Source of the DNA: Squalus acanthias
Lineage: Eukaryota
Direction of reading: 5' to 3'
DNA length: 64,000 nucleotides
Assembly: GCA_030390025.1 (NCBI GenBank)
Contig: CM059431.1
Coordinates: 116,624,001-116,688,000, forward strand
This document shows, in pieces, positions 18,001 through 58,021 of the stretch; within the stretch, counting starts at the first letter, position 1; each line of letters opens with the position of its first letter. A model generated the notes under the pieces. The model saw only the letters and a program-made list of their open reading frames with translations. It made no database searches and was not told the DNA's origin. A program made the translations under genes and the position numbers.

Positions 18001-18498
18001 TCGGACTGGAGGAAAGTATACAGTGGTGTTCCCCAGGGGTGGGTACTAGGACCACTGTTTTTCTTGATATATATTAATGACTTAGACTTGGGTGTACAGG
18101 GCACAATTTCAAAATTTGCAGATGACACAAAACTTGGAAGTATAGTGAACAATGAGGAGGAGAGTGATAGACTTCAAGAGGACATGGTGGAACGGGTGGA
18201 CACGTGGCAGATGAAATTTAACGCAGAAAAGTGCAAAGTGATACATTTTGGTAGGAAGAACGAGGTTAAGCAATATAAACTAAATGGTACAATTGTAAAG
18301 GGGGTGCATGAACAGAGAGACCTGGGGGTATATGCGCACAAATCATTGAAGATGGTAGGGCAGGTTGAGAAAGCGATTAAAAAGCATATGGGATCCTGGG
18401 CTTCATTACCAGATGCGGAGATGCCGGTGTTGGACTGGGGTGGACAAAATTGAGAGGTCGCACAACACCAGGTTATAGTCCAACAGTTTTATTTGAAA

Positions 18499-18540
18499 TC
18501 ACAAGCTTTCGGAGCTAACGCTCGCCCCTTCCTCAGGTGA
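18499..18540 (-). ncRNA. Minimal type I hammerhead ribozyme (second arm)
   Basis: Minus strand TCAC-CTGAGGA-A-GGGGC-gagcgtta-GCTCC-GAA-AGCT-T-GTGA. Confidence 0.7.
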
Positions 18541-18943
18541 AGTAAATTAGATACAGAATCGCCAAAGCATATATAATCGGGATCTTGGGTTTATGTCACG
18601 ATACATGACGTGATCCGGACTCGAGTCGTCGTTAGCTTGTTCACAGATGTGATTCCCAGTAAAAAAGTAAAAATTTTCCCAGTAAAAAAGTAAAAATTTT
18701 AAAGCTTTTCGTTTTACATACAGACGGCAGCTTTTGACACGTTAGAACCCCTGCGACTACACCTCATTGTCTCAGTTGTATCTTGCTATGTCTTTGATGT
18801 GGTACCTTCCTGGCTGACTTAATTAACTTTATCACACCTCGGCAGATAGTCAGGATGATTTAATTTAGTGGTCTGCAATTGTAAGGTACACATGCTTAGT
18901 TTTCTATCTATATATGCTTTGGCGATTCTGTATCTAATTTACT

Positions 18944-18985
18944 TCACCTGAGGAAGGAGCAATCGATAGCTCCGAAAGCTTGTGA
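18944..18985 (+). ncRNA. Minimal type I hammerhead ribozyme
   Basis: TCAC-CTGAGGA-A-GGAGC-aatcgata-GCTCC-GAA-AGCT-T-GTGA: conserved core, stem I TCAC/GTGA, stem II, palindromic stem III. Confidence 0.7.
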
Positions 18986-19320
18986 TTTCAAATAAAACTG
19001 TTGGACTATAACCTGGTGTTGTGCGACCTCTCAATTTCATTACCAGAGGCATAGAGTACAAAAGCAATGAAGTTATGATGCACCTTTATAAAACACTGCT
19101 TTGGCCTCAACTGGAGTATTGTGTCCAATTCTGGGCACCGCAGTTTAGGAAGGATGTGAAGGCCTTAGAGAGGGTGCAGAAAAGATTTACAAGAATGGTT
19201 CTAGGGATGAGGGACTTCAGTTACGTGGATAGACTGGAGAAGCTGGGGTTGTTCTCCTTAGAGCAGAGAAGGTTGAGAGGAGATTTCATAGTGGTGTTTA
19301 AAATTGTGAGAGGCCTGGAC

Positions 19321-20102
19321 GGTAAGACATGCGGAAATCGCCCCGTCCAACAGTTTCCAAAGTTCAGACCTGTCGAACAGACAACACAAAACCCAATGAA
19401 TCTGTGAAACTTCTTTCACTTAAACATCAGCAAGAGATTACAAGTAAGCATCCAACAGTTATGTAGCGTATAATAATTCCCAATTATACCTCAGCATACA
19501 CAGAGCTATCCCTTTACTTTAAGCTCAAGCAAAACATCACATGTGTACTAACACCAGAAGTGGTCAATCCGGCAGTGACTAGACGTATGATTTCTGGCAA
19601 CTAACCAGGTCGCCCGGCTGCAGCCCCGAGTGTCTTGAAACAGCATCTTTTATACCCCAAAATTTGGCTACCCTCCCACTGTATACGTGTTGTTTTACAT
19701 GTCCCTAACTATATGGATATAATCTTCATTAGTTGTTTTTTTCAGTTACTCTTATCAATAGTCCGTTGAGCATTCATGGGCCTTCAAGGTTGGTTTTCCA
19801 TGGTCTGAAGATGTTTCCATAATTCAATAGTCTGTTCCCACAGGACTCTCAATGCATGCCTTCCTTATCTTGGTAAAAGGCAGCTGGCAGCCTTTCACAG
19901 CTTACAACCGTAACAGTTCATTTAGCAGAAAGTCTCTGTTCCTGCCCAAGGTCTCCTTTATCTGTCAATAGTTTTCATACAAAAATTCTCACAGGAACCA
20001 ACCTCTCAGCTTCCCGAAGCATGCTGGTATATTAAAATGTGGCTAACTTTTTAAGTTTGGTCAAGTTACAGAAAAAGTTATAGCAAATTGTTTGTTCTTA
20101 GA
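19321..20102 (-). mobile_element. Solo LTR of the env-bearing element family
   Basis: Near-identical to 28429-29217; CR1 resumes exactly after it; flanks GGAC/AGAC (4-bp TSD, one mismatch); TATAAAA on minus near 19650. Confidence 0.85.
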
Positions 20103-20308
20103 AGACAGAGTAGATAGAGAGAAAGTGCTCCTATTGGCGGACGGGTCGAGAACCAGAGGACACAGATTTAAGGTGATTGGCAGAAGAACCAAAGGCGACA
20201 TGAGGGAAAACTTTTTTATGCAGCGAGTGGTTAGGATCTGGAATTCACTGCCTGAAAGGGTGGTGGAGGCAGATTCAATCATGGCTTTCAAAAGGAAATT
20301 GAATAAGT

Positions 20309-21376
20309 ACCTGACGAAAAAAAGTTTCAGGGCTACGGGGAAAGCGTGGGGGAGTGGGACTACCTGATGTGCACTTGCAGAGAACTGGCATGGGCTCGAC
20401 GGGCTGAATGGCCTCCTTCTGTGCTGTAACCATTCTATGATTCTATGAATACAGAAGATAATGGCATGTTGCTTATCCCATGTTGGATTTGATCAATTGT
20501 GAAGCCTGTTTAAGTCAGCTCTGGAGCCAAGCTATTACCATTTCTGTGTGCAGGCCATTTCATTATTTGAAAACTGCATTGCGATTGCAAATAATTGGAT
20601 CCATTCGCTGAATAATGACCCTAATTGCTATTTTTGCAACACCAGGAAATCCGTGTCATTATTTGAAGCCCATGTTGGAAGCTGGCAGCCTCAACCCACA
20701 CCAGATGACATGACACTGATTTATCCAGGTGTCAACTGACCTTTTATCACTTCAGTTGTTGATGCACCACCCCCGCCATTTATTTAATAGGTTACCAGCG
20801 GCATTATGATCGAAAAACCTAGACCTTACAATATATTACAAGGCACAGTTAGTTTGTATTATTTATCAGCTAGTTCAGTTGGTAACGATGCTGTCACTGG
20901 GCCAGAGTTGTAGGTTCAAGTCCTCCATCATGACTGCAATTCATAGTCGAGGCTGACACTCCAGTGCAGTATTGAAAGGATACTGAATAATTGGGGCTGC
21001 TTTCCTTCAGATGTGACTTTAAACCAAAAGCCTGCTTAATTGTTCAGGTGGATGTTAAAATCTGATGATATTATTTGAAGAAGAGCGGGGAGTTTGTCCA
21101 ATGTCCTGGCCTCCGCCAACAATACCTGAACAAATAGATTAACTGGTCACTCATGGAATTGACATTTGTCAGATGGTTCTGGCGCAGAACAGCTACGCAG
21201 TTTGCCTACATAACAACACCCACTGCACTTCACTAAGTAATTCAATGGCCGGAATTTTGTGGGGTCCGTGCGGGCGCGATTGGAGGTGGGTCAGGTGGGA
21301 AATTTGAAATAAATTGGAGCGGGTCAGGAACCCGCTGTCATCCTGCCACCACGCACCTGTCCCTCAGGCGTGTTTG
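20309..21376 (+). repeat. Direct duplication, copy 1 (CR1 tail, unique DNA, old SINE, Harbinger left end)
   Basis: Aligns by eye to 29398-31166; near-identical ORFs 20548-20739 and 29638-29829. Confidence 0.9.
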
Positions 21377-21482
21377 TAACATTTTAAGTTTGGTCAAGTT
21401 ACAGCAAAATTTATTGCAAATTGTGTGTTCTTAGAAGTCTACCCTCAAGTGGCTGTGCACCAGAATCAAGGCTCACAGGCAC

Positions 21483-24385
21483 TTACAACTTGTAGGCTTT
21501 GTCTTCTTCCTTTGGTGTCTTCTGCAACAGTTTAATCCACTCTTGCTGCTTGCGTCTCCTGTTGACTCAACAAGTTATCGTTAGTAAATATAGCACAAAC
21601 ACCAACTGAACAAGGACCAAAACGTGGGAAATAATTCTTTTCCATGGATGAACCTCAATACTCACACCAATATCCCACCAGGACTAATCGTCCCCGACCT
21701 TAAGGATTGCTTTACGCAGTTCACGATTTTTCTGGGCCAGGGTATATTAGTAATTTTGGGACTGACTAACGCGTTTCATTAACTCTACCAAATGTTCTGG
21801 CAGAGGTGGAATGTCATAGCCGAGCCGAGTCACATACTGGTGTAATTGCTCTTTTAACGCATCTTCTACAGCGATATCTACTTGCCTATGCGAATAAATG
21901 CTGAATAAAATCCGCGCCCCAAGTCTTACAGGCTGACTGGGGTAAAACAAAAAGTTCCCGCCACAATAGATATGTCAGGTTTTTACCGTACTGGTATTCC
22001 CAGTGCATAGTGGTGACACAATATTCACCCTCCCATCGGTACGCAGATCCTACGGGGAAATGCTGTCCTGCAATCATTTTCATGGTGCAGTTCCATTCTA
22101 TCCCATCCCAATCAAACCTGCATGCAGGGGCTGCACATTCTACCTTGTCATAAGGGCAGTTGAATGTGTCCTGCGTTTGAGCACACCCGATAAGATCTGG
22201 GCCACCCATGTGGTCCCATCCGCTCTGGTCACGTATTTTGGGGGTTCGTCATACCTTATTAAGTGATCTCTCTGATGTACTATATTCTTCATGCAGAATA
22301 GAGGATTTGGGGTCGCATTTTTGGTCAAAATGGGATAATACAATACCGTATCTAACAGGGTGAAGTTGTTTTTTTCCTGCAAATGGCATCCATGTTTCAC
22401 CGGGTACACCTGTACCAACCCCCTGACTTTACACATATTCATGGTAAATTGGTAAGTGAACATTGCCCTTAGATGTCGGTTAGTCATCACGAGGGAAGAA
22501 AAGAAAGAAAGACTTGCATTTATATAGCGCCTTTCACGACCACCGGACGTCTCAAAGCGATTTACAGTCAATTAAGTACTTTTGAAGTGGAGTCACTGTT
22601 GTAATGTGGGAAACGCGGCAGCCAATTTGCACACAGCAACGTGGTAATGACCAGATAATCTGTTTTTTTTAGTGATGTTGATTGAGGGATAAATATTGGC
22701 CAGGACACCGGGGATAACTCCCCCTGCTCTTCTTCGAAATAGTGCCATGGGATCTTTCATGTCCACCTGAGAGAGCAGACGGGACCTCGGTTTAGCGTCT
22801 CATCCGAAAGACGGCACCTCCGACAGTGCAGCACTCCCTCAGCGCTGCACTGGAGTGTCAGCCTAGCTTTATGTGCTCAGGTCACTGGAGTGGGATTTGA
22901 AACTACAACCTTCTGACTCAGAGGCGAGTGTGCTACCCACTGAGCCACAGCATGCAGCTGCCCTTCAGCAATGCTCTGCAGGCTTTCACGGGCTTGTTCC
23001 ACTAACCAAGATCCATACATTACACACACATGATTTTGCTCGGCCTCACTAGAGGCATTCCGATCCTCCTTTAAAATTTGATTTATCTTTTTAGCATGGG
23101 ATTCTAAATGTTTAACCACATCCTGCAGATGAATGGTTATAATTTGGTCCTCTTCCAATTCCTCCTGTTCTAGACCATTCATTTTATTCAAAATTTCCCT
23201 CAAACGATTTCTAACCGCCTTTACGGATTGATCCAAATTAGCCAAATCAAGGCTATTAACCAGGAAGGTTCTGGTATTAAAAACAGTGGCTGCATCATTT
23301 ATCAGACCCCGTCGCCTTCTGATATGGTTCCCTTTAATCCCGTAACCAACATCATTTTCTTCAATGATCTCGGTACTATTTTCCCCAAAGTTATCGTTAA
23401 ATCCATTACCATCCCCTGAGCCCTTGCGATATAACGGTTCTCATTCCGATTCTGCCAATGTTATGCTGGCTCTTTCCCCAAAATCCCTCTATTAACTCCT
23501 GCATCATCCTCCCATATAACCGCGCTGTCTCTAGTTTGCACCAGTTCGGTATTCCCACCTCAGTCTGATACAATATTACCGGCACCACCTTGTGATGCAC
23601 ATCATGGTACAATATTAATCCGAGTTGGGATCTCTACCAACCCATTTGTCGGTCCCGGGGTGTGTTTAGGGCAAGTGACCTGGGTTGTATGTTGTCCTTC
23701 CCGGGATTGTGTTTTATTTATAGGGGGAGGGGTTTTTGGTCAAACTTTTAAATCTACTGCATGTATAACCACACTTCCGTCACCATGATAGGTGCTAATA
23801 CCGGTATCGTTGTTATACCATTGATAGAGTTCCTTGGCCCTATGGTGGGCAAACATCGTACAATTGGTCACATCCCTTTCAATCATAGACAAGTCGTCCA
23901 AATCATCCGACTGGAACCTATCTGACACTCCACTTGGGCTTACACATCCGTAAATTCCCTCATGAATTTTCCACCATCGGGGCCAGCACAACAGTGTCTC
24001 CCGCTGCTCGGGATTGGGTCGGCTTCCTACATTCCCCCGAGGGTTCCCTATCTGACAATGCCTTGAATGGTTACCTGGTTCTGCTTGTAAAAACCATACC
24101 CATGGCCAGGTGGGGCGATCTTTGCATTTTATGCATACCCTCCCTACCTTCCTGGATCTCATAAGTGGTAACCCATACTGTTGCTGAACACGTGGTTTCA
24201 CAATCACCCTTGATGTACTGGAGGGTAATGTTTCGAGTGACGTTCCAGGGTGGTGTCTCCGGAGCAACTGCAATCGAACTATTATAGGGAAAATAGTTAG
24301 TGTTGGTCCAGTATGCCGAATAGGCTGACTTGGATTCTTCGATATAGAGCAGAATCCTGATCATTGACCAGAATAATTCCTTCAT
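21483..24385 (-). pseudogene. env: Envelope / class I fusion glycoprotein (frameshifted, SINE-interrupted)
   Basis: N-terminal hydrophobic start, N-glycosylation sequons, furin-type RRRR (23309-23320) followed by GLINDAATVF and a heptad repeat, Cys-rich region (21886-22490), second helix, TM IISHVLVLVQLVFVLYLLTIT (~21570-21635), basic tail. Confidence 0.75.
22496..22951 (-). mobile_element. Full-length tRNA-derived Deu-domain SINE (SacSINE1-like) inserted in env
   Basis: A box TGGCTCAGTGG, B-box-like GTTTCAAATCC, Deu-like body, (TTTC)n tail; env-like peptide continues on both sides. Confidence 0.85.
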
Positions 24386-24505
24386 TTTATACAGTTCAAC
24401 CTCTCAATACTGATGTATTTTTTAAAACAAAACAAAACGGGACTTGCTACTTTTTTTTTACTGTATCGGGCAATTTTCAACTCCTACCACTGATGTCTTT
24501 TTATT

Positions 24506-25545
24506 TCATTTACTACGTCGTGGGGTAGGAGGTGTCTGTTGGATTTGTCTGCGGACAGGAGGTGGTTCCGGGCCTGGGGATGAGGAGGTTTCTACAGCTC
24601 CCATGTCCTGTCCACCTTCATCTGGATCATACTGTACCTGTGGAGGCACCATTTCAGGCAAGGGCGCATCATTGGGTGGGGGTACCCCGCTAGGTACCCT
24701 TTCTTCATCATCCCACTGGAGAGGATAAATCTGGCTCACCATGCTCATAATTGTGGTTTGTCTTCTTGAACTGCTAGTGGGCTGAAAATGCCTCATCTGT
24801 TTAATATGAAACCATTTAATTTTCTTAGGTAACCGAATCGCATACACCATAGGACTGGCTTTATCAACAATGTTATATGGTCTCTTGTAAAGAGGTTCAA
24901 ACACTCCCACCCTCGCATAGTTTCGTACCATTACCTGGCTCCCCATCTCCCATTCCTGGGGTTTACTTGGAGCCAGGTGTAATCGGTTGTGTTGGTGAGC
25001 CTTCCCAATGTTGTGGGCGGCCCTCAGGTGTATCCCCTTCAAAGTTTCCCAGAGGTCGCTCAGGAATTTGTCCCGAGTCACCCCCTTAACCTGCTTGTCA
25101 GTTAACGTGGTGACCAACAGGTGTGTGGGGGTTTGGATGGGTCTCCCCGTTACCAATTCGTGTGGGGAATGACCCGTTCCTTTGGATCTGTTACTACGTA
25201 TCTCCACAAGGATTAGGGGAAGTACCTCATCCCACTTAGTGTGCTGTTCGTTTAATTCCTTTTGCAGGGCCAACTTCAACGTATGGTTCATTCTTTCCAC
25301 AATCCCCGATGATTGTGGGTTTTGGGTCACATGCCATTTCCCTTTTATTCCAAGCAATTTCAGAGTGGCTTGCATTACCTGACCTGTAAAATAATTTCCC
25401 TGGCCTGACTCTACCATGCAAGGAAGTCCCCATCTGGAGAATACCTCTCTAACTAGGGTCTTGGCTGTCCACAATGCTGTGGCCGACTTGCGCGGGAAAG
25501 CTTCTACCCACCTGGTAATCTTGTACCATCAACACTCATCTGGCC
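24506..25545 (-). pseudogene. Retroviral/Gypsy-type integrase (core + GPY/F), N-terminus lost
   Basis: VEAFP...VFSRWGLP..VESGQG(SDQG decayed)..PQSSGIVERMN..TGHSPHELVTGRP..FEPLYKRPY. Confidence 0.9.
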
Positions 25546-26771
25546 CCCTGCTTAAAAGGAAAAACAGAAAAATCCATTGTGGCTTTCCTGCCAGCCCAAT
25601 GGGTTAATTGTCAATTCCTGATTCCCTTCAGTCACTGTGGGGAAACATCCACTCAAGTTAAAAAAATTGAAAATTTAACATTGCCCAAAATGTTCACAAA
25701 ACACACAGCTGGTTGTGAAAAGAGTTAACTTTTTTTTTTCAAAAGAAGACAAACCCAGATCCCATCAATTAATGTTAGCTTGTGTCACACAACTTCTCAC
25801 AGCTTTCAGGTAAATTTAAAACAAAATCTTTTTGCCTTTAAAACTTACAAAGATTCTGATCAATTCAATTCAGCAGGTAAAAAGCGTCAGACATCATAAA
25901 CATTCTGTGAAACAACTCCACACACAACAATAGCATTTCCTTTTTTTCCCCCCTGGTCACACATTCTTGAAATTGGTCAGAAATTTTAAAAATACCAATT
26001 GTTGATGTGATTGCCTCATGTCCGGAACTCGAGGCTTTCACACAATTTACACCAACCAGAATTTCACCGTGGCCACAATAAAAGTCTGCTTTAAACAGGT
26101 TAATTAACCTCAATAACTCTAATTTAATTCAAACCAATATCTTAAACTAACCAGTACCGCTTGAAAAAGTGGGAGGAGCTTCCCTCAGCTTGTAGCTTCG
26201 AAACATTCATACAAGTTTTTTTCAGACATCACTACACTGAAAAGAGAAAAGGGACAGAACCTTTCCTTTTCTCCTGTCTTTATTTCACCATAGGCTACTT
26301 GTCAAAAACTTAGAAAGTGGGCATCTCGGACATGCAGTAACCAAATTAAGAAAACAGTGCTTTGTAAACGTTCAATTAATTTAAAATCAAATCAAACAAT
26401 AGCTATTTTTTGTAATACAATTAGAACAAAGTACTTTCAAAAAGTCCAAATTAATTTCTACCAGATACGATTAGAAACCATGGCAACTGTAACTTCAAGG
26501 CTGAAGCTTATCTTTTGTAAAACAAACTGCTTCTGATTTACAGTTTGCTGTACAAGCTGTCCCAGTCAAAATATATCCACAGCAGTGTCTTTAACTTAAA
26601 AATACAAATCACAAAGTTTCTCCCACTTCTAGGTGCACAATCTTAAATTGAAATGAACATATTTAACACATCCATACTCTTAAAACTTCCAACATCCAAC
26701 AAAGGATTAAACGGCTTTAGCTCCATGCACAGAAAAGTGGGTGGAACTAAAACAAGCACAACAGACACTTT

Positions 26772-27547
26772 GGGCTGGATTTTGTCTTGGGGTCGGGTTG
26801 GGGTCGGGTAATCCGCATTTCGTGTTTCCCCCCCGACTCCAGAGTAATGTGGATGCCTGATGCAATTTTCACTTAATTGGGCAATTGAGTTGCAGCATGT
26901 GGGAACCCATGACCTAATTAGTGGTTTCAGTCTGAAACCCGCCTCTGATGATGTCATCATTGCTGACTGCCTGCTCTCAGAGATTGTCTGGCTGCTGGTG
27001 AGAGAGGACCTTTCTGCATTGCTTCTGATGTGAGTGGACCTGGATGCATATATATATATATATATATGAATGTGAGAGAGAGAGAGAGAGAGAGAGAGAA
27101 TTTTTTGCATCCAAGTCCTCTTACACCAAATCCCATGACATTGAATGTAGCAGTATCAGAGGCGACTTTCACACCTCATACTACTACTACTTTCATCACA
27201 TCTCCGTTGTAATAGTGGACTTGCAGCCGATAGTCAGCTATCCATTTGTGCTCCCGCCAGGTTTCACTGGAGTGTTTCACACCAGGCATACTTCACGTCA
27301 GAAAAGGGTTAAACTAGCTGCAATGTTTCAAAATAGCATTATAGGCCCAATTTAGGGCTTGTTAAGTGCTTTAATGGCCTCTCCCGCCTCTTGGAGGCGG
27401 GACGGAGTCGGGAACCCCGCGACTGATTTTGTCAAAATTGCGTGGAGGCGGGATGGAGTCGGGATGGGGTCGGAAACCCCGACCCCGCAAATTTAACCCC
27501 CCACACGCCTCCAAACCCGACTCCATGGGTCATTCAATATCCAGCCC
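26772..27547. mobile_element. Harbinger MITE family A, inverted relative to 354-1090; contains (TA)n and (GA)n
   Basis: TIR GGGCTGGAT...ATCCAGCCC; reverse-complement similarity to 354-1090. Confidence 0.85.
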
Positions 27548-27699
27548 TCCCTCTCAAAGACAGACTTTCAGACAAACTTCTTAAAATTGATAGTCAGGAA
27601 AACTTCCACACTTTAATAGACACTTTCACACAAACTGAAATTCAGCATCCTTTAAGGTTCCTTTCACTCAGCAAATCTTGTGTTTTATTTGTCTCGGCA

Positions 27700-28389
27700 T
27701 AGAAGCTGATAGCTTCCGTGTCGGTAAAACTTTAAGTTTCTCTTTTTTTTCCTACTTTTAAATCGGCATCTCAGCAGCTTTTCCTGGCTCCCCAAATCCC
27801 TGTTTTTTTCCTTCCTTTGCTGAGTTTTCAGATTGGTTAGCCTGCAACGTAGATCCTTTCCCCTCTTAACTCCCACTCTCTCTCCTGCTCTTTATGCTTC
27901 ACCTCCAGTTTCTTAATCCACTTATTACATTCACTGTGGTCACTACGAGCACTCCGTTCCTCTAGAGCCTGTTTCTGGGTGACCCTAAATGCAACCTTCA
28001 GGTCCTCATTGATCTTTTCTGCCTGTTCTGCCTGATGTCTCTGTTTGGATAGTTCTTTTGACACGGTATCGTACTGATTCTGATTATTTATACACTGGCT
28101 ATCGAGTTGTTGTTCTTTATTATACCACCTCTCCTCCTGTTCTAACTTTTCCTCGAGCCGGGTTCTACGTTCCCTTTCTTACTCTGTTTCTTTCCTTAAC
28201 TTGATCTTTACCCTTTCATCAGATTTAAACTGCCTCTGATAGGCCAATAACCAAACAGATGTCCTTACCCTTGGCCCACACATGGACCCTTGTGTCCACT
28301 GTCCAGCCTCCAATACTGGATCATTACCGTCGAAGAGGCAACTTCCCTGTCACATACTTAGTGACTAACTCATCCATTGACTTTGCCAT
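27700..28389 (-). pseudogene. gag N-terminal coiled-coil region (degenerate)
   Basis: ATG 17 nt downstream of PBS (MAKSMDELV...), then E/K/Q/R-rich heptads ERRTRLEEKLEQEE...SKELSKQRHQAEQAEKINEDLKVAF. Confidence 0.6.
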
Positions 28390-28405
28390 TGTCTGATCTG
28401 AATGG

Positions 28406-28423
28406 GTCCCTGTTCAGGCGCCA
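28406..28423 (-). promoter_or_regulatory. Primer binding site, tRNA-Lys(UUU)
   Basis: TGGCGCCTGAACAGGGAC, one mismatch to the canonical TGGCGCCCGAACAGGGAC, 5 nt from the LTR end. Confidence 0.9.
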
Positions 28424-28428
28424 AAATC

Positions 28429-29217
28429 TGTTTGACATGCGGAAATCGCCCCTCGCCCCGTCCAACAGTTTCCAAAGTTCAGACCTGTCGAACAGACAAC
28501 ACAAAACCCAATGAATCTGTGAAACTTCTTTTACTTAAAAATCAGCAAGAGATTACAAGTAAGCATCCAACAGTTATGTAGCGTATAATAATTCCCAATT
28601 ATACCTCAGCATACACAGAGCTATCCCTTTACTTTAAGCTCAAGCAAAACATCACATGTGTACTAACACCAGAAGTGGTCAATCTGGCAGTGACTAGACG
28701 TATAATTTCTGGCAACTGACCAGGTCGCCCGGCTGCAGCCCCGAGTGTCTTGAAACAGCATCTTTTATACACCAAAATTTGGCTACCCTCCCACTGCATA
28801 CGTGTTGTTTTACATGTCCCTAACTATACGGATATAATCTTCATTAGTTGTTTTTTTCAGTTACTCTTATCAATAGTCCGTTGAGCATCTGTGGGCCTTC
28901 AAGGTTGGTTTTCCATGGTCTGAAGATGTTTCCACAGTTCAATAGTCTGTTCCCACAGGACTCTCAAAGCATGCTTTCCTTATCTTGGTAAAAGGCAGCT
29001 GGCAGCCTTTCACAGCTTACAACCGTAACAGTTCATTTAGCAGGAAGTCTCTGTTCCTGCCCAAGGTCTCCTTTATCTGTCAAAGGTTTTCGTACAAAAA
29101 TTCTCACAGGAACCAACCTCTCAGCTTCCCGAAGCATGCTGGCATATTAAAATGTGGCTAACTTTTTAAGTTTGGTCAAGTTACAGCAAAAGTTATAGCA
29201 AATCGTGTGTTCTTAGA
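28429..29217 (-). repeat. LTR of env-bearing element
   Basis: ~790 bp, highly similar to 19321-20102; PBS on one side, PPT+env tail on the other. Confidence 0.9.
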
Positions 29218-29397
29218 AGTCCACCCTCAAGTGGCTGTGCACCCAAATCAAGGCTCACAGGCAGTTACAACTTGTAGGCTTTGTCTTCTACCTTCGGGGT
29301 CTTCTGCAACAGTTTAATCCACTCTTGCTGCTTGTGTCTCCTGTTGACTCAACAAGTTATCGTTAGTAAATATAACACAATCACCAACTGAACAATG

Positions 29398-31166
29398 ACC
29401 TGAAGGAAAAAAAAAATCAGGGCTACGGGGAAATGGCAGGGGAGTGGGACTAGCTGAAGTGCTCTCGCAGAGAGCTGGCATGGGCTCGACGGGTTGAATG
29501 GCCTCCTTCTGTGCTGTAACCATTCTATGATTCTATGAATACAGAAGATAATGGCATGTTGCTTATCGCATGTTGGATTTGATCAATTGTGAAGCCTGTT
29601 TAAGTCAGCTCTGGAGCCAAGCTATTACCATTTCTGTGTGCAGGCCATTTCATTATTTGAAAACTGCATTGTGATTGCAAATAATTGGATCCATTTGCTG
29701 AATAATGACCCTAATTGCTATTTTTGCAACACCAGGAAATCCGTGTCATTATTTGAAGCCCATGTTGGAAGCTGGCAGCCTCAACCCACACCAGATGACA
29801 TGACACTGATTTATCCAGGTGTCAACTGACCTTTTATCACTTCAGTTGTTGATGCACCACCCCCACCATTTTTATTTAATGGGTTACCAGCGGCATTATG
29901 ATCGAAAAACCTAGACCTTACAATATATTACAAGGCACAGTTAGTTTGTATTATTTATCAGCTAGTTCAGTTGGTAACGATGCTGTCACTGGGCCAGAGT
30001 TGTAGGTTCAAGTCCTCCATCATGACTGCAATTCATAGTCGAGGCTGACACTCCAGTGCAGTATTGAAAGGATACTGATTAATTGGGGCTGCTTTCCTTC
30101 AGATGTGACTTTAAACCAAAAGCCTGCTTAATTGTTCAGGTGGATGTTAAAAATCTGATGATATTATTTGAAGAAGAGCAGGGAGTTTGTCCAATGTCCT
30201 GGCCGACATTACTCCAGCAATACATAAGAATGTAAGAACATAAGAAACAGGAGCAGGAGTAGGCCAATCGGCCCCTCGAGCCTGCTCCGCCATTCAATAA
30301 GATCATGGCTGATCCAATCTTGGCCTCAACACCACTTTCCCGCTCTCTCCCCATACCCCTTCACTCCCTTGTAGTTCAAATGTCTGTCAATCTCCGCCTT
30401 GAATATATTCAATGACTCCGCCTCCACAGCTCTCTGGGGTGGAGAATTCCAAAGATTCACGACCCTCTGAGAGAATAAATTCCTCCTCATCTCCGTCTTC
30501 AATGGGCCACCCTTTATTCTGAATCTATGCCCCCTAGTTCTAGATATTTCCACTAGGGGAAACATCCTCTCAGCATCCACCCTGTCAATCCCCCTCAGAA
30601 TCTTATATGTTTCAATAAGATCACCTCTCATTCTTCTAAACTCCAATGAGTATAGGCTCAACCTTTCGTCATACGTCAACCTCTTCATCCCAGGAATCAA
30701 CCTAGTGAACCTTCTCTGCACTGCCTCCAATGCAAGTATATCCTTCCTTAAATATGGAGACCAAAACTGTATGCAGTACTCCAGGTGCAGTCTCACCAGC
30801 GCCCTGTAAAGTTACATTAAAACTTCCTTACTTTTATACTCCATACCGCTTGCAATAAAGGCCAACATTCCATTCGCCTTCCTAATTACTTGCTGTACCT
30901 GCATGCTAACTGTTTGTGTTTCATGTACTAGGACCTCCAGATCCCTTTGTACCGCAGCATTTTGTACCTGAACAAATAGATTAACTGGTCACTCATGGAA
31001 TTGCCATTTGTAAGATGGTTCTGGCGCAGAACAGCTACGCAATTTGCCTACATAACAACACCCACTGCACTTCACTATTAATTCAATGGCCGGAATTTTG
31101 TGGGGTCCATGCGGGTGAGATTGGAGGCGGGTCGGGAACCGCGCACCTTTCCCTCGGGCGCGTTTG
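29398..31166 (+). repeat. Direct duplication, copy 2 (with extra CR1 insert)
   Basis: Matches 20309-21376 apart from the insertion at ~30223-30964. Confidence 0.9.
30223..30964 (-). mobile_element. 5'-truncated CR1 LINE
   Basis: ORF 30326-30796 LEYCIQFWSPYLRKDI...TRGH...WNS; (CATAAGAA)n tail; absent from duplicate copy 1. Confidence 0.9.
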
Positions 31167-31522
31167 CCGGTGTGGCAGTGACCCGAACGACAGAGACGGA
31201 CGACCTAATTCAAATCATTATCACCTTGTTGTCAGACCCTTAATTGCCTTTTTTAGTCTCCCTTTCAAATTTCCCTGGCTGCCCATGGGATTCACACAGC
31301 TCGGGAACCACGTCTGTCAGCCTGAGGCGGGAGTTGAGTGGCCATTGCTCCAGCTAATTAGATGCCAGCAAGAAATGTACTATAAAAGCTCCCACCTCAC
31401 AGCTGATCACTTTCCTCAGGCAGAAGCTGTTGCTGACTGCATTCCCAGCACAGTTTTAGCTATCTACAAGCTGCAAGTGTTTGCAGCAAAGTCAACATCC
31501 AGTCTCACCTCATTGGTAGAAC

Positions 31523-33100
31523 TTATTCGAACCTTGGCAGAATTCTTCTCTCATCTCTACTTGACCCGCCATCAGAGGGGCCATGAGGACCCAAGTCTAT
31601 GCTGACATCCCTCTTAGACAGAAAGTCTATGAGCCTCTGCCATTTATGCTCCATAGATGGCCATCTATTCTCCATGGAGACCATGTGCTCCTGTGAGTGG
31701 CACATTAGCTGCTCCATGCATGTGGTCATCCTTTCCATGGAAGAGCCTGCAGTCGCCATCGCCTGCGACATAGTGGTGCTCATGTTGGAGATGGACTCCT
31801 CCATTCTCTGCACATTTGCAGACATCGCGGTCGCTAAACCTGTCAGAGCCTCCTGCACTTCTTCCTGCACCTCCAGGATCGCCCTCTTTCTCGATGGCCC
31901 CCGAGGCTCAGCATCTGCATGCAGCCAAGCAGAGCTGGGAGCGTCCTGTGCCCTCCGGCGAGGAGACTCCACTGCTGTCCCTGTCTCCACCATCTGCTCT
32001 TTCTGATTTGTGATAGACCAGGTGACAATACTACTCTATCTTGCGTGGGACCCACCGCAGTCTGCGTCTCTGTGCTGGTGCTGGGTGTGCTTATGTCTGG
32101 TGATGCTGTGCCCTCAGAGGCTGGAGGCTCCTCTGAGGAGTCATCTTCCTCTTCCTCCTGGACAGTTGGCGGGGGGGGTGGGGAGGTGGTGGTGCTCTTG
32201 ATGGACCTGTGGGAGAGTAAAGGGATGAGTTAGATATGCCATATGAAGAATGGGCACTGATACCATTATGCACATGATGACCATTCAGTGACTGATGACA
32301 GCAGTACCCATATGAGTGACTGATGTATGCCATGTAGCTGTTTGATATTTAATTCTATCAGCAGGTTGCTGAGATGTCCCCCTCTCTCCGTCTCCCACCT
32401 CCAGCTGCTCAGCCACTCCCGATACTTCGAATGCAGCCTCTTCTGCTGATGTTACAGTGGCCAATAATGGAGTGCCACCTCCAGTTCTCTCCCTCTCCCT
32501 CTTATTGTGTGCTCCCCTTTCTTCCAAGGAGAGAAAGAAGAGAAGGTTGAGTGAGAGTGATGGAATGAGTGTAAGGAATGGATGAGTTACATCTTTAGAG
32601 GGAGACTATAATGGATTGGGTGGCAATGCCAAGTGGCCTCCTTGTGTGTTGTTAGTTGGTATGATTGCACTAGGATGAGAGTGAGTGTGAGGGGTGGCTA
32701 GTAAGATGAGGATGTGATAATGTAGATAGAGAGGGATGGGTGGACGTGCAAGGTATGTTGGTGTGAGTAAGAATGTGCAGGAGTAGGGTTGGGAAGACAG
32801 AGTGATGCGGATGTGATGAGAGGCACAGCAGGATGAAGTTGAGTGTGGCTTTGTACTCAACTTTCCTGATCTAATGAGATCATTGAAGCATTTCAGGTAC
32901 TGCACCCAGGTCCTCCTGAACACATCCCTGCTATTCAACTCCTCTGCAATTTGGAGGCAGGCTCTTCTTGTCTCCTGGTGAGGTATCTTCCGCCCATTTG
33001 AAGAGAAGAGGACCTCCCTGCGTGCTCTCACTCCCTCCACAAGCATATGGAGGGAGTCATCGGAGAACCTGGGTGCAGCCCTCTGTCTCAGTGCAGTCAT
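31523..33100 (-). pseudogene. Harbinger Myb/SANT DNA-binding protein gene, multi-exon
   Basis: Exon 1 MTALRQRAAPRFSDDSL...RTWVQYLKCFNDL; exon 2 AHNKRERERTGGG; acidic linker; C-terminal coiled coil (31523-31993). Confidence 0.8.
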
Positions 33101-33532
33101 GTCTCCAAGTGTTTGGAGCAAACTAAACCTCCAGTACAGTGAGTGCAAACTCCTCGAGGAACCTTCAAATGCAATGCGGCCATGGCCCGACTGAAAACGC
33201 ATCATGGGTGACCTCATCAGACCCGCGCCATTTAATAGGGCCGCGTAACGCGCAGGGCGTGCTTAATAGGCCCTGACGTAAGAAAACTACTAGGCACTTG
33301 GATCTAAGCGTTAAACAAAGCTTTAATCAACTGTTTTTCAACATGGAGATCTAGTTGTGTCTTTATCTGGTTCCTGTTGAGGAATGTCCTAAGCAAGCTG
33401 GGCCCATGCCTGAGTATTTATACTCTCCCTGGACAGCGCCACCAGCAGGCCGCCCAGTAGTACTTCATACATGAATGACAAGATTCATGTCATTCTTCCC
33501 GCCTGAAAGATTGGAAGTCCGGCAGCTTCCTT

Positions 33533-36075
33533 CTACCGAATTAGCCGGACTAAGAATAGACGCAGTCGTTTGGTTCTCCATTGGAGGCCGGAAAGCACGT
33601 CTCCTCGGACCGTGTCTTGGTCCCGAGGTCGCTTGGTTCGTACAGGCGGGCTGGCAGAGTCCGTGTTGCCTTGATCGACCTGAGGGGGACTGGGGAGATC
33701 GTGACTCCGGGTGCGGGCCCTCACAGGCGCAGAGCTGGCTTCATCCTGCTCAGTAGCCAGTGATTGACCGGCGTCCTGGCTTTGGGTGGCCATCCCGCGG
33801 GGAGCGCTCTGTTCCCCGGGTTGATCTGGCGGAGTAGCTGGCCAATCCCTTGATGTCCCGGGTAGGGCGTCATCCTCGGAGGAGCGCGGAGTATCGGCGT
33901 CGTTAATACGGATCTCTCTATCGATTGGGTCCGTGGGACCGGTTGGGCAGAGAGCCAGATCCCGAAGTGAAACTGTGGACTCCCGGACATCAGGGTACTG
34001 CACGTATGCATATGTAGGATTGACATCCGTTAGTTCCACCTCGTCGACGAGGGGATCACTCTTGGAGGATCGGACGAATCTTCGGAGCAGCACAGAGCCA
34101 GGAGCTGCCAACCATGATGGTAGGGACGTCCCATGAGTGGAGCGACGCTGGAACCCGAAGAATCGTTCGTGAGGAGTAACATTGGTGGATGTAGAAAGAA
34201 GAGACCTGAGGAAATGCAACGCGTCAGGGAGCATAGTTGCCCACTGTTGGTCTGGTAGATCGCGTGACCTCAGTGCAAGATGAATAGCGTTCCAAATGAT
34301 AGCGTTGTATCTCTCAACCTGTCCGTTTCCAATAGGATGATACGGTGTCGTTTTACTTGTGGCAATTCCCATTTGGGAAAGATAACTTTTGAGTTCGCTT
34401 GACATGAAGGAGGGACCCCGATCAGAGTGGATGAAATTGGCCGTACCGCAAAGGGAAAAGACCTGATCGAGGCATTTGATCACTGTGGAAGTAAGCATAT
34501 TGGGACAGGGGAAAGCAAAGGGAAAGCATGAATATTCGTCCACGATAGTAAGCAAGTAGGTGTTTCGTGTTGAGGAAGGCAATGGCCCTTTAAAGTCAAT
34601 GCTGAGTCGCTGCATAGGCTGTGTAGCGTGTGTGAGCGAGCCATCCGACGGACGGAAGAATTGCAGTTTTAATTCCGTGCAAATTCTACAAGTGGAGCAT
34701 GTTCTTTTCACGTCTTCCGCAGAAAATGGGAGATTTTTAGATCGCACAAAGTGCAACATACGGGTAACGCCAGGATGGCATAAGTCAATATGAAGATCCG
34801 CAAGCGTCGAAGTTGACATGGAAGAGCTGGATGCACGCGTGAGGGTATCAGGGGCCACATTCTCCTTGCCGGGTCGATACTGTATGGTGTAGCCAAAGGC
34901 GGCCAATTCCATCCTCCAGAGCTGTATTTTGATCTTCTTGATTTTAGTGCGTTTCCGGTTATCCAGCATAAAGGCCACCGAGCGCTGATCGGTTATGAGC
35001 GTGAAATGGCGACGAGCGAGAAAATGATTCCATTTACGTACTGCTTCGATGATAGCCGTAGCCTCCTTCTCGACAGGAGGATAATGGAGCTCGCTACTCT
35101 GCAAAGTTCTAGACAGAAACGCAACGGGTTGACCGCCTTGATTCAAGGTAGCCGAGATCGCCACCTCCGATGCATCGCACTCGACCACGAAAGGGAGATT
35201 TTCAGTGATGGAATGAAGCGCGGCTTTTTCCAGTTGTTGCTTGAGGAGGTCGAAAGCTGAAATAGCCCTCGCCTCCAACGGAAATGACTTCGCGTGAAGC
35301 AGGGGCTGGATCTTGTCGGAAAAGTGAGGTGTCCACTTTGCATATTAGGCGAACATGCCGAGGGCCCGACGAAGAGAGCTGAGATTCGTAGGAGGAGGGA
35401 GCTCCTGAAGCGGACGAAGTCGCTCCGGATCCGGTTTGATGACACCATTGCCCACCCAGTAGCCAAGGATTATGACTGATGGTACTGATTTCACAGATTC
35501 GGACTCATTTAAGGTTAAGTTGCGATGACGGAGAACGTCAAGAAATTTCTGGAGGTTAGCATCATGCTCCTTCTGGTCATGACCAGCAATGGTGATATTA
35601 TCCAGATATGGAAAAATGTCTGTTACTGTTAAGTTCTCCTGTTTGACGAGGCTATCCATTGCCCGTTGAAAGACGGCCACCTCATTGGTGACCCCGAATG
35701 GAAGGTGACAAAACTGGTAAAGCCGACCATTGGCCTCAAAGCCGTATACTTTTTGTCAGAGTCCTTTAATGGTACTTGATGGTATGCGTCTTTAAGTCAA
35801 AAGTTGAAAATACCTTGTAGTTAGCAAGGTTATTGACCATGTCATCGATGCGTGGTAGTGGGTAGGCATCCAGGTCGGTATACTGGTTAATAGTTTGCGA
35901 GTAATCGATGCAAAGACGTTTCTTGTTTTGCTTCAGAGGATTTTTAACAACGACGACTTGAGCCCGCCAGGAAGATGAACATGGCTCAATGATACCATCA
36001 GCTAGAAGGCGAGGGATCTCTGCCTCGATAAAGGATAGGTCATCTTGGCTGAAACGTCGTGATTTAGTGGCTATG
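33533..36075 (-). pseudogene. pol: Gypsy pol (RT-RNase H-integrase), frameshifted
   Basis: RLCIDY, DAYPLP, PFGVTN, YLDN; CDAS..., EKEA, TDQ; H..H..C..C; IDFKGP, HSDRG, NGQVER. Confidence 0.92.
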
Positions 36076-55059: not shown

Positions 55060-55496
55060 AGGAGCTGACACTGAGCCATAGAATGAAAGAAGGGATCAAA
55101 AGCCTGTTTAAAACAATGGATTTAAAGAAGGTTTTCAAAGATTGAGAGAAATAGAAAGGTGGAAGAGTTCAGAGAGGGAGTTTTAGAAGCCTGGAAGCCT
55201 GAAGGCTCTGCCACCAATTATGGGACAAAGGGAGGAGTGGATGGTCAAAAGGCTAAGAGTTGGAGTACCAAATGCTGTGGGGCCAGACTTAAGGCTTGAA
55301 GAGGTTACACAGGTAGGGTGGGGCAAAGCCATGGAGTGATTTGAATATGAGCATGAAGAGCCAATGCAGGTCTGCAAGGATGGGAGTGACGAGCAAGTGA
55401 GACAGGATTCAGGAAGCTGAACATTAAACAAGTTGAAGTTTGTAGAGGGCGGAAATGGGGACTGGGAAGGAAGGCATTGGAGAATGCGAGTCTAGA
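55060..55496 (-). repeat. Old L2 fragment
   Basis: Minus-strand SRLAFSNAFL...IIGGRAF, similar to 14690-15060. Confidence 0.6.
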
Positions 55497-55522
55497 GGAA
55501 TAATAAGGGGAAAAAAACATTA

Positions 55523-58021
55523 GTGGGCGTAGTCTATAGGCCTCCGAACAGTTGCAACTCTATTGGACGGAGTATCAATCAGGAAATAGTTGAGGCATGT
55601 AATAAGGGAACATCTATAATTATGGGGGATTTTAACTATCATATTAATTGGACAAATCAAATGGGGCAGGGCTGCCTTGAGGATGAGTTCATTGAGTGTA
55701 TTAGGGATGGGTTTCTTGAGCAGTATGTAACTGAACCGACCAGGGGGCAAGCAACCTTAGATCTGGTCCTGTGTAACGAGACAGGATTAATTAAAAATGT
55801 CCTAGTAAAGGATCCCCTTGGAATGAGTGACCATAACATGGTTGAATTCCATATTCAATTAGAGGGTGAGAAGGTTGGATCTCAAACAAGCGTGCTAAGC
55901 TTGAATAAAGGAGACTATGAAGGTATGCGAGCGGAATTGAGTAGAGTGGATTGGGAAAATAGATTAAAGGGTAAGACGACACATGATCAGTGGTGTACAT
56001 TCAAGGAGTTATTTTACAACTTCCAAAAAAAATATATTCCACTGAAAAGAAAAGGGTGTAAAAGAAAGGACAGTCATCCGTGGCTAAGTAAAGAAATTAA
56101 GGATAGTATTCGACTAAAAACAAGGGCATATAAGGTAGCGAAATCTAGTGGGAGGACAGAGGATTGGGAAAACTTTAAAAGGCAGCAAAAAATAACAAAA
56201 AGATTGATTAAGAAAGGGAAGATAGATTATGAAAGTAAATTAGCAAAAAATATAAAAACAGATAGTAAGAGTTTTTATAGTTATATAAAAAGAAAAAGGG
56301 TGGCTAAAGTAAATGTTGGTCCCTTAGAGGATGAGACCGGGAAATTAATGGTGGGAAATATGGAGATGGCAAAAACACTGAATGAATATTTTGTATCAGT
56401 CTTTACAGTAGAGGAAACTAAGAATATCCCAACACTGGACAAACAGGGGGCTATAGGGGGAGAGGAGCTAAACACGATCAAAATCACTAAGGAAGTGGTA
56501 CTCGGTAAAATAATGGGACTCAAGGCGGATAAATCACCTGGACCTGATGGCTTACATCCTAGAGTCTTGAAGGAAGTGGCGGTAGGGATTGTAGATGCAT
56601 TGGTAATAATTTTTCAAAACTCCCTGGATTCCGCTAAGGTCCCGGCAGACTGGAAAACTGCTAATGTAACACCCTTATTTAAAAAGGGCAGTAGACAGAA
56701 GGCTGGTAACTATAGACTGGTTAGCCTAACATCTGTGGTAGGTAATATTTTGGAGTCCATTATTAAGGAAACAGTAACAGGACATTTGGATAATCATAAT
56801 TTAATAGGACAAAGTCAGCATGGTTTTACGAAGGGGAAGTCATGTTTGACAAATTTGCTGGAGTTCTTTGAGGAAGTAACATATAGAGTGGATAAAGGGG
56901 AACCAGTGGACGTAGTGTATTTAGACTTCCAAAAGGCATTTGACAAGGTGCCACACAAAAGATTATTGCTTAAGGTAAAAAATCACGGGATTGGGGGTAA
57001 TATTCTGGCATGGATAGAGGATTGGCTATCTAACAGAAAGCAAAGAGTTGGGATAAATGGTTCATTCTCAGACTGGCAATCAGTAACTAGTGGTGTTCCA
57101 CAGGGGTCAGTGCTGGGTCCCCAACTCTTCACAATCTATATTAACGATTTGGAGGAAGGGACCAAGTGTAACATATCAAAATTTGCAGATGATACAAAGA
57201 TGGGAGGGAAAGTAGTGAGTGAGGAGGACATAAAAAACCTGCAAGGGGACATAGACAGGCTAAGTAAGTGGGCAGAGATTTGGCAGATGGAATACAACAC
57301 TGGAAAGTGTGAGGTGATGCACTTTGGCAGGAAAAATCCTAGAGCAATTTATTATCTTAATGGCAAGAAACTGGAGAGTACTGAAGTGCAAAGGGATCTG
57401 GGGGTCCTGGTGCACGAAACTCAAAAGGTTAGTATGCAGGTGCAGCAAGTGATTAAGAAGGCAAATGGAATGTTGGCTTTCATTGCTAGGGGGATAGAAT
57501 ATAAAAATAGGGAGGTATTGCTTCAGTTGTACAAGGTATTGGTGAGACCGCACCTGGAATACTGCATACAGTTTTGGTGTCCTTACTTAAGGAAAGATAT
57601 CCTTGCTCTCGAGGCAGTGCAAAAAAGGTTCACTCGGTTAATCCCGGGGATGAGGGGGTGGTCATATGAGGAGAGGTTGGGTAGATTGGGACTCTACTCA
57701 TTGGAGTTCAGAAGAATGAGAGGCGATCTTATTGAAACATATAAGATTGTGAAGGGGTTGGATCGGGTGGATGCGGGGAGGATGTTCCCGATGACGGGTG
57801 AGACGAGAACTAGGGGACATAGTCTTAGAATAAGGGGCTGCTCTTTCAAAACTGAGATGAGGAGGAACTACTTCACTCAGAGGGTGGTAGGTCCATGGAA
57901 TATGCTGCCACAAAAAGCTGTAGAAGCTACAACATTAATTAAATTTAAAACAGAAATAGACAGTTTCCTGGAAGTAAAGGGCATTAAGGGTTACGGGGAG
58001 CGGGCAGGAATTTGGACATGA
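55523..58021 (+). CDS. CR1 ORF2 (5'-truncated, open over 832 aa)
   Basis: YRPP, GDFN, SDH, RT motifs, C-terminal TRGH; element spans ~55497-58257. Confidence 0.9.
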   Translation: MGVVYRPPNSCNSIGRSINQEIVEACNKGTSIIMGDFNYHINWTNQMGQGCLEDEFIECIRDGFLEQYVTEPTRGQATLDLVLCNETGLIKNVLVKDPLGMSDHNMVEFHIQLEGEKVGSQTSVLSLNKGDYEGMRAELSRVDWENRLKGKTTHDQWCTFKELFYNFQKKYIPLKRKGCKRKDSHPWLSKEIKDSIRLKTRAYKVAKSSGRTEDWENFKRQQKITKRLIKKGKIDYESKLAKNIKTDSKSFYSYIKRKRVAKVNVGPLEDETGKLMVGNMEMAKTLNEYFVSVFTVEETKNIPTLDKQGAIGGEELNTIKITKEVVLGKIMGLKADKSPGPDGLHPRVLKEVAVGIVDALVIIFQNSLDSAKVPADWKTANVTPLFKKGSRQKAGNYRLVSLTSVVGNILESIIKETVTGHLDNHNLIGQSQHGFTKGKSCLTNLLEFFEEVTYRVDKGEPVDVVYLDFQKAFDKVPHKRLLLKVKNHGIGGNILAWIEDWLSNRKQRVGINGSFSDWQSVTSGVPQGSVLGPQLFTIYINDLEEGTKCNISKFADDTKMGGKVVSEEDIKNLQGDIDRLSKWAEIWQMEYNTGKCEVMHFGRKNPRAIYYLNGKKLESTEVQRDLGVLVHETQKVSMQVQQVIKKANGMLAFIARGIEYKNREVLLQLYKVLVRPHLEYCIQFWCPYLRKDILALEAVQKRFTRLIPGMRGWSYEERLGRLGLYSLEFRRMRGDLIETYKIVKGLDRVDAGRMFPMTGETRTRGHSLRIRGCSFKTEMRRNYFTQRVVGPWNMLPQKAVEATTLIKFKTEIDSFLEVKGIKGYGERAGIWT

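What the first reader, a model, noticed from the sequence alone, without database searches (positions are those of the whole stretch)
20309..31166. Provirus is circularly permuted and flanked by ~1-kb direct repeats: non-integrase capture of an LTR circle or concatemer?
Seen: the viral segment starts inside an LTR (21377), runs env-IN-gag-PBS-complete LTR, then continues into PPT and env tail again (29218-29400, repeating ~21436-21620). Neither junction is an LTR end; the right junction has ACC microhomology. Host DNA 20309-21376 is repeated at 29398-31166. Inference: a 1-LTR circle or tandem provirus was copied in by template switching/break repair, producing a kilobase duplication, 200 bp from a solo LTR of the same family.
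Basis: partly seen in the sequence, partly recalled or inferred. Interest (0 to 1): 0.7.

Follow-up and report, generated by a model that had tools for sequence, protein, structure and literature searches.

The report
Provirus partly recopied beside itself
A broken retrovirus-like element in what is probably a shark genome was partly copied to a spot about 1.3 kb from where it first inserted, duplicating a kilobase of host DNA; it looks like a local DNA-repair rearrangement of one old insertion, not a new way for viruses to integrate.

Summary
The structure is in the sequence as described. An 8.0-kb viral segment (21377-29400) has a 242-bp terminal redundancy and lies between two copies of about 1.07 kb of host DNA. 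Neither junction is an LTR end.

The donor is not an independent circle. The solo LTR (19321-20102), the LTR tip and the full LTR carry the same letter in the terminal dinucleotide; laid family contigs mostly read another. The solo and full LTR share further such sites. The solo LTR sits in a LINE with a 4-bp target duplication (3 of 4 letters match), as after ordinary integration.

Best reading (0.6): this provirus was partly recopied 1.3 kb downstream by template-switch or break-repair duplication. One junction is blunt, the other has 12-of-15 homeology. The original then collapsed to a solo LTR, and gene conversion homogenised the middle of the host repeats (10 of 812 differences against 23 of 189 at the edges).

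Rivals: recapture of the excised 1-LTR circle (0.15), one-ended integration (0.12), haplotype misjoin (0.08). Contig depths in two samples fit two host copies, but neither junction appeared in the read tables shown. A single dead locus made by known processes.

The parts
19040..19320 (+). CR1-type LINE relic, part upstream of the LTR insertion (family label recalled; start approximate)
   Evidence: RT C-terminal-like frame 19012-19407; matches other LINE copies in the window
19321..20102 (-). LTR1: solo LTR, site of the original integration; flanked by 4-bp target duplication 19317-19320 / 20103-20106 (3 of 4 letters match)
   Evidence: other LINE copies resume at 20103 (joints)
20103..20311 (+). 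LINE remainder, 209-bp spacer between LTR1 and host repeat 1; not repeated in copy 2
20312..21376 (+). Host repeat R1: LINE 3' end, single-copy-type core (about 20450-20860), SINE-like piece, first 130 bp of a DNA-transposon-like repeat cut at the junction
21377..21435 (-). LTR tip (59 bp of U3 end); left junction J1 at 21376/21377, no microhomology
21436..24403 (-). PPT-like stretch and broken env-like gene (basic cleavage-like site, coiled coil, TM tail), with SINE-like inserts near 22500-22940; 21436-21618 is the repeated env tail
   Evidence: weak lead
24506..25528 (-). Integrase remnant, N-terminal part missing
25560..27690 (.). Non-coding, partly AT-rich stretch where PR/RT/RNase H would lie; contains a 780-bp repeat with short terminal inverted repeats (26767-27547, 81% to 354-1095); boundaries approximate
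27690..28400 (-). Broken gag-like, coiled-coil-rich reading frames; no family hit
28406..28423 (-). Primer binding site (tRNA-Lys-like; assignment recalled)
   Evidence: sequence
28429..29217 (-). LTR2: complete LTR, PBS on one side and PPT/env on the other (internal-LTR or 1-LTR-circle arrangement)
29218..29400 (-). Second PPT and env tail (183 bp); right junction J2 ends in a 15-bp homeology (29386-29400) to LINE 20297-20311
29401..31166 (+). Host repeat R2, interrupted by an inverted LINE 3' fragment (30224-30964, 3 letters duplicated); the transposon-like repeat at its end runs on into downstream DNA

Best explanation
One LTR element integrated normally into a LINE at 19321. At or fairly soon after that time, host replication or break repair recopied part of it 1.27 kb downstream. 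Synthesis that had passed the host segment R jumped back into the inner LTR 59 bp from its end (J1, blunt) and copied the internal region and the next LTR. It passed from that LTR into PPT and env again through LTR-LTR homology (a tandem-provirus intermediate or a homologous switch). It left env after 183 bp and rejoined the LINE at a 15-bp homeology (J2), so R now flanks the copy on both sides. This may have been one multi-switch event, or a tandem duplication followed by a templated patch that replaced the 209-bp LINE spacer with env tail, or an uneven exchange between two alleles. Afterwards the original provirus collapsed to the solo LTR, gene conversion homogenised the centre of R and part of the LTR, and further LINE/SINE/MITE insertions accumulated. 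Shown: anatomy, junction types, shared marks, mosaic divergence. Inferred: order of events, template switching, gene conversion. The element has lost most of pol and has no evident function.
For: (1) The same letter stands in the terminal dinucleotide at 20101, 21434 and 29216. Contigs laid at 21434 read another letter at depth 87.3 of 107.2 (X1), 51.2 of 51.2 (X5), 193.1 of 193.1 (X22) and 71.2 of 71.2 (X24); the X1 remainder (about 20) is about two units of the 8-9 single-copy depth. (2) Of the 11 LTR-range sites shown, LTR1 and LTR2 agree with each other and differ from the listed contig letter at 6; LTR1 alone differs at 5; a 2-bp indel at 19736 is also shared. (3) LTR1 has a 4-bp target duplication. 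(4) J2 lands in the same LINE copy that holds LTR1, and the blocks are colinear: LTR1-R1 gap 209 bp, LTR2-R2 gap 183 bp. (5) J2 homeology 12 of 15; background 5 of 335,350. (6) Arms: 14 of 99, 10 of 812, 9 of 90 differences; 0 of 200 shuffles as clustered. Both copies changed at the left edge (R1 matches the outgroup at 7, R2 at 3, neither at 4 of 14). Raised divergence at block edges is described for converted duplicates (PMC2588116, passages). (7) The three LTR tips form a star (2, 3, 1 private changes in 59 bp), and the terminal redundancy (6.2%) is not distinguishable from the less homogenised 535 bp of the LTR (21 of 535; P=0.20), so rearrangement and integration are of similar age. (8) Depth divided by window k-mer multiplicity is 8.5, 9.2, 8.1 in X1 and 25.2, 18.5, 25.8 in X5.
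Against: It needs several steps, and none of the intermediates (full provirus allele, tandem allele) was seen. The repeat edges (23 of 189) are more diverged than the core is between species (33 of 610 in organism J; P=0.003), which is hard to square with an event younger than that split; the left edge and two deletions (33, 18 bp) in R2's right edge remain unexplained. J1 has no homology. The marker table is cut (40 of 319 rows) and biased to well-supported sites; shared letters could partly be subfamily marks or conversion. Neither junction appears among the 15 of 477 joints shown. One X1 contig runs through 20950-21272 unbroken where the LINE-bearing copy should fork the graph.
Confidence: 0.6

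Rival explanations
1. Excise and recapture: LTR-LTR crossover released a 1-LTR circle and left the solo LTR; the circle was then copied into a break 1.27 kb away, running slightly more than one round, with duplication of R.
For: Explains the solo LTR, the shared marks and the PBS-LTR-PPT arrangement in one chain; segment length is one unit (7782 bp) plus 242 bp.
Against: A circle opened once gives at most one unit, so rolling copy is needed. It gives no reason for the near-equal LTR-to-R spacing (209 against 183 bp). It predicts LTR1-LTR2 at least as diverged as the terminal redundancy; observed 23 of 779 against 15 of 242 (P=0.03), unless conversion is also invoked.
Confidence: 0.15
2. One-ended integration: the incoming DNA had a non-canonical U3 terminus, integrase joined one end, and host polymerase extended the other end over host and viral templates (LINE, R, viral DNA, R) before recombination sealed it; the solo LTR formed later.
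For: The private mark lies in the U3 terminal dinucleotide and is in all three ends, as expected if it predates integration. In HIV/ASLV experiments a poor end gives truncated viral ends, appended viral or host pieces, short junction homology and duplications of hundreds to thousands of bp (PMC5041404, passages). Star-like ages fit. The two letters after LTR1 equal the two letters after the inner LTR ends, so an unprocessed end cannot be excluded.
Against: The marked end of LTR1 joins the LINE exactly where a concerted 4-bp staggered integration puts it; the two odd junctions are elsewhere. LTR1's other terminus is also non-canonical, so later decay can produce such changes.
Confidence: 0.12
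3. Assembly artefact: two haplotypes (solo LTR; rearranged tandem provirus) were joined at J1.
For: The centre of R differs by only 1.2%, an allele-like level; contig depth ratios cannot tell a fixed duplication from a heterozygote; junctions not seen.
Against: J1 has no homology for an assembler to join on. The edges differ by 10-14% with 33- and 18-bp gaps. Two samples from different studies give the same 2:1 ratio, and X5 holds a contig that starts exactly at 21123 and mixes R2-type and R1-type letters. Both samples would have to be heterozygous.
Confidence: 0.08
4. Capture of an independent incoming viral circle or concatemer, unrelated to the solo LTR.
For: Neither end of the segment is an LTR end; integrase-independent insertion is known.
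Against: Shared marks tie the segment to LTR1; the LTR-range contigs listed differ from LTR1 by about 5-11% against 3% for LTR2; insertion 200 bp from an LTR in the same orientation would be coincidence.
Confidence: 0.04

Closest known systems
Tandem LTR elements sharing an internal LTR (PMC11899658, 9 passages read)
   Same: LTR with internal sequence on both sides; coexistence with solo-LTR products; attributed to LTR-LTR recombination or complex insertion, mechanism often undecidable
   Different: Here the tandem is cut to one unit plus 242 bp, displaced from the integration site and flanked by a host duplication
HERV-K(HML-2) loci with long flanking duplications (PMC5488345, parts 2-3 of 4 read)
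   Same: ERV sequence between long host direct repeats (up to 450 bp), one case a truncated provirus; authors consider later rearrangement ('pseudo-TSD')
   Different: Repeat is 1.07 kb; neither junction is an LTR end; the donor's solo LTR lies outside the repeats
Aberrant one-ended HIV/ASLV integrations (PMC5041404, 12 passages read)
   Same: Truncated viral ends, short junction homology, large host duplication, several templates appended
   Different: There one end of the insert is usually a normal integrase junction; here the normal junctions belong to the separate solo LTR and both look concerted
FoSTeS/MMBIR-type complex duplications (recalled, no paper read)
   Same: Several local template switches, one with imperfect homology, one blunt
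   Different: Template is a provirus, and one switch is hidden in LTR homology
Lokiretroviruses (PMC7947760, abstract and 9 passages)
   Same: gag-pol-env order, env with basic cleavage site, coiled coil and TM, weak features of F-type fusion proteins; coiled-coil-rich 5' frames
   Different: RT is absent, so the defining test cannot be done; the term search of that paper found no shark or cartilaginous host

Membership tests
Integrase-made provirus / solo LTR (LTR1) | Junctions at both LTR termini with 4-6 bp target duplication | tested here: met
   4-bp duplication, 3 of 4 letters match; LINE copies resume at 20103. An unprocessed end with 2-bp overlap reads the same.
Integrase-made provirus / solo LTR (LTR1) | Canonical terminal dinucleotides | tested here: not met
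   Both LTR1 termini deviate by one letter; the U3 deviation is shared with the other two local ends
Integrase-made provirus (segment 21377-29400) | Ends at LTR termini, short target duplication | tested here: not met
   Ends lie inside an LTR and inside env; duplication is 1.07 kb
Inserted 1-LTR circle | Single complete LTR with PBS on one side and PPT on the other | tested here: met
   28406-29230
Inserted 1-LTR circle | Permuted length of at most one unit | tested here: not met
   One unit plus 242 bp
Inserted 1-LTR circle | Donor independent of a resident provirus | tested here: not met
   Marks shared with LTR1; a circle from this same provirus is not excluded
One-ended aberrant integration | One viral end unusable by integrase at the time of integration | tested here: inconclusive
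   Non-canonical U3 terminus in all three ends, but the junction position fits concerted integration
One-ended aberrant integration | Whole structure formed in one step from an empty site | not testable with these tools
   No genome held; needs orthologs or alleles
Duplicate under interlocus gene conversion | High identity in the middle, raised divergence at both edges | tested here: met
   10 of 812 against 23 of 189; 0 of 200 shuffles
Duplicate under interlocus gene conversion | Paralogs closer than orthologs while the duplication predates the split | tested here: inconclusive
   Centre 1.2% against 4.7-5.4% to organisms K and J; presence of the duplication in J and K unknown
Lokiretrovirus | RT groups as sister to other retroviruses | not testable with these tools
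   No RT found in this copy
Lokiretrovirus | Env with detectable similarity to PF00523 fusion proteins | tested here: inconclusive
   No Pfam hit; Atlas 0.92 to clusters with Baculo_F in 11-32% of members, 0.88 to Fusion_gly, recognition below threshold; second fragment gave nothing

The most novel reading that the evidence does not exclude
The locus is a germline fossil of a one-ended integration: a reverse-transcription error altered the U3 attachment end, and host repair synthesis built the host duplication and the permuted viral copy in the same event, as so far shown in HIV/ASLV experiments. If so, ERV loci with altered termini should be enriched for such local duplications, which can be tested genome-wide.
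Probability: 0.12. Interest if true: 0.55.

Novelty: new member of a known kind. Interest (0 to 1): 0.27.

Why it matters
It is a clear worked case of a provirus seeding a complex local duplication, and a caution: a permuted provirus between long repeats can mimic circle capture, and divergence of such arms or LTRs cannot be used for dating when conversion has acted. Recombination between the two arms would remove the 9-kb insert and leave a false 'empty' allele. No host function is indicated. It would matter more if the altered U3 end proved causal, since that would link natural germline ERV rearrangements to one-ended integration.

Tried and rejected
No whole genome is held, so no genome-wide LTR survey or ortholog comparison was possible. 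Metagenome scans for LINE relatives to polarise the left edge: 0 hits and 1 hit whose locus matched the window only over the 21-bp pattern. Viral-contig scan with IN: 0 loci. Homolog search with the env fragment: 0 of 770 candidates. Second Atlas query: nothing useful. In the read laying (4 of 24 listed runs; 19000-22450 only), high-copy LINE/SINE contigs swamped the tables; the absence of junction joints, and the absence of the local mark in X5, X22 and X24, are not evidence of absence because contigs drop rare variants and X5 was read to about 55%. Earlier-findings look-ups returned nothing. Rejected: DIRS/Ngaro split repeats (a DDE integrase and PBS are present); simple deletion from an ordinary provirus (cannot give PBS-LTR-PPT-env or the host duplication); one-sided error-prone synthesis as sole cause of the left-edge divergence (both copies changed, though the outgroup is only 76-77% alike); direct dating by arm divergence (mosaic). 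Paper searches listed no report of a permuted ERV between kilobase repeats beside its own solo LTR; the library is partial and supplements were not read.

Full report
What is there. Self-comparison of the window and pairwise alignments confirm the layout. A solo LTR (LTR1, 19321-20102) interrupts a LINE. After 209 bp more of that LINE comes host segment R1 (20312-21376). Then follow a 59-bp LTR tip, env-like and integrase remnants, a non-coding stretch, gag-like frames, a primer binding site, a complete LTR (LTR2, 28429-29217) and 183 bp of PPT and env tail again. Host segment R2 (29401-31166) closes the structure; it carries a 741-bp LINE insertion and runs on into downstream DNA colinear with another copy of the same transposon-like repeat. 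The element lies on the minus strand. Its integrase is 60-61% identical to two shark proteins, so the host is probably a cartilaginous fish (inference). tblastn with those relatives matched only the integrase core onward, so most of pol is gone.

Junctions. J1 (21376/21377) has no shared letters. LTR1, by contrast, has a 4-bp target duplication with one mismatch; LINE contigs resume at 20103. Two letters at that junction fit both virus and host, so an unprocessed end would read the same.

Is it real? No genome is held. Five of the 24 listed runs come from two samples of one organism. I laid four runs on 19000-22450. Of the 32 pieces shown I used the 6 from organism A with at most 2 substitutions. 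Their depth divided by the window's own k-mer multiplicity is 8.5, 9.2, 8.1 in X1 and 25.2, 18.5, 25.8 in X5, so the core of R is at about twice the depth of the near-identical viral pieces in both samples. An X5 contig begins exactly at 21123, where R1 and the LINE-bearing R2 merge, and mixes letters of both. Against this, an X1 contig crosses that place unbroken, neither junction is among the 15 of 477 joints shown, and the ratio would be the same in a heterozygote. Misjoin is unlikely (0.08) but not excluded.

Where the segment came from. The three local LTR ends carry the same letter in the terminal dinucleotide (20101, 21434, 29216). Contigs laid at 21434 read another letter at depth 87.3 of 107.2 in X1 and at all depth in X5, X22 and X24. 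The X1 remainder is about two single-copy units, which the tip and LTR2 account for. Of 11 LTR-range sites shown, LTR1 and LTR2 side together against the listed letter at 6, LTR1 stands alone at 5, and a 2-bp indel is shared. The table is cut (40 of 319 rows) and contigs drop rare variants, so this is good but partial evidence. LTR2 differs from LTR1 at 23 of 779 sites, whereas the listed LTR-range contigs differ by about 5-11%. J2 falls in the very LINE copy that holds LTR1, and the LTR-to-R gap is 209 bp in one block and 183 bp in the other. Together these tie the permuted segment to the provirus that integrated at 19321.

Ages. The arms are mosaic: 14 of 99 differences at the left edge, 10 of 812 in the centre, 9 of 90 (6 at CpG) plus 33- and 18-bp gaps at the right edge; 0 of 200 shuffles were as clustered. 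With a distant in-window outgroup, both copies have changed at the left edge (7, 3 and 4 undecided of 14). High identity in the middle with diverged edges is the pattern described for duplicates under gene conversion (PMC2588116; 6 passages read). The terminal redundancy differs at 15 of 242, not distinguishable from the less homogenised part of the LTR (21 of 535, P=0.20) or from the core's distance to organism J (33 of 610, P=0.63). The three tips form a star (2, 3, 1). The rearrangement thus seems about as old as the integration, roughly 4-6% divergence. The edges are more diverged than that (P=0.003 against J), which I cannot explain; faster change in repeats or conversion from other repeat copies are possibilities.

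Mechanism. The best reading (0.6) is a local duplication by template switching or break repair of a normally integrated provirus, with a hidden LTR-to-LTR switch or tandem intermediate, followed by solo-LTR formation and conversion. Whether it was one multi-switch event, a tandem duplication plus a templated patch, or an uneven exchange between alleles cannot be told. Recapture of the circle excised from this provirus (0.15) needs more than one round of copying and does not explain the colinear spacing. One-ended integration (0.12) is attractive because the private mark lies in the U3 terminus, and such ends give kilobase duplications and appended templates in HIV/ASLV experiments (PMC5041404; 12 passages). 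However, the marked end sits exactly where concerted integration puts it. An independent incoming circle (0.04) is disfavoured.

Comparison with what is known. Tandem elements sharing an LTR are common and polymorphic in plants, and their origin is often undecidable (PMC11899658; 9 passages). HERV-K loci with flanking duplications up to 450 bp are known, with later rearrangement considered (PMC5488345; parts 2-3 of 4). Searches (listings only) showed no report of this exact combination, but the library is partial and no supplements were read. The element's family is open: the env fragment gives a weak lead to F-type fusion proteins, as described for lokiretroviruses (PMC7947760; abstract and passages; bioRxiv 10.1101/2023.10.26.564294, 7 passages; PMC9040795, term search without hits), but RT is missing. 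The labels CR1, Harbinger-like, tRNA-Lys PBS and FoSTeS/MMBIR are recalled, not from a call.

Verdict. Observation confirmed in the assembly; interpretation partly supported. A single dead locus shaped by known processes, with a small chance of being a natural fossil of one-ended integration. Interest 0.27.

Noticed in passing
window 55496-64000: Tandem array with a 3444-bp unit, at least 2.47 copies running off the window; units 99.3% and 98.6% identical; contains LINE-like pieces. Recent duplication or assembly artefact.
   Followed up: partly
window 25560-27690: Non-coding, partly AT-rich DNA replaces most of pol; it ends in a pyrimidine run and AG just before the integrase remnant, resembling a splice acceptor. 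Captured host DNA or a non-autonomous subfamily feature.
   Followed up: no
window 21436-24403 and 27690-28400: Env has weak features of F-type fusion proteins and the 5' frames are coiled-coil-rich, so the family may be lokiretrovirus-like; term searches of two papers on that group found no shark host. Integrase relatives occur in two sharks and, more distantly, coelacanth.
   Followed up: partly
window 34115-35431: A second, distant LTR-element pol remnant on the minus strand (27-36% identity by tblastn).
   Followed up: no
window 31085-33262: DNA-transposon-like relic with a Myb/SANT frame (PF13873, E 5e-8); its first 130 bp form the right edge of the host repeat.
   Followed up: partly
window 18447-19037: 129-bp inverted repeats, 96.9% alike, around a 330-bp core, inserted in the LINE upstream of LTR1; MITE-like.
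   Followed up: no
window 21111-21124 and 30205-30223: The two arms differ by small indels exactly at the site where R2 carries its LINE insertion, although both flanks are near-identical.
   Followed up: no
window 20312-20410 and 29401-29500: Left edge of the repeat is 14% diverged with only 1 of 14 differences at CpG, more than any other duplicated part; unexplained.
   Followed up: partly
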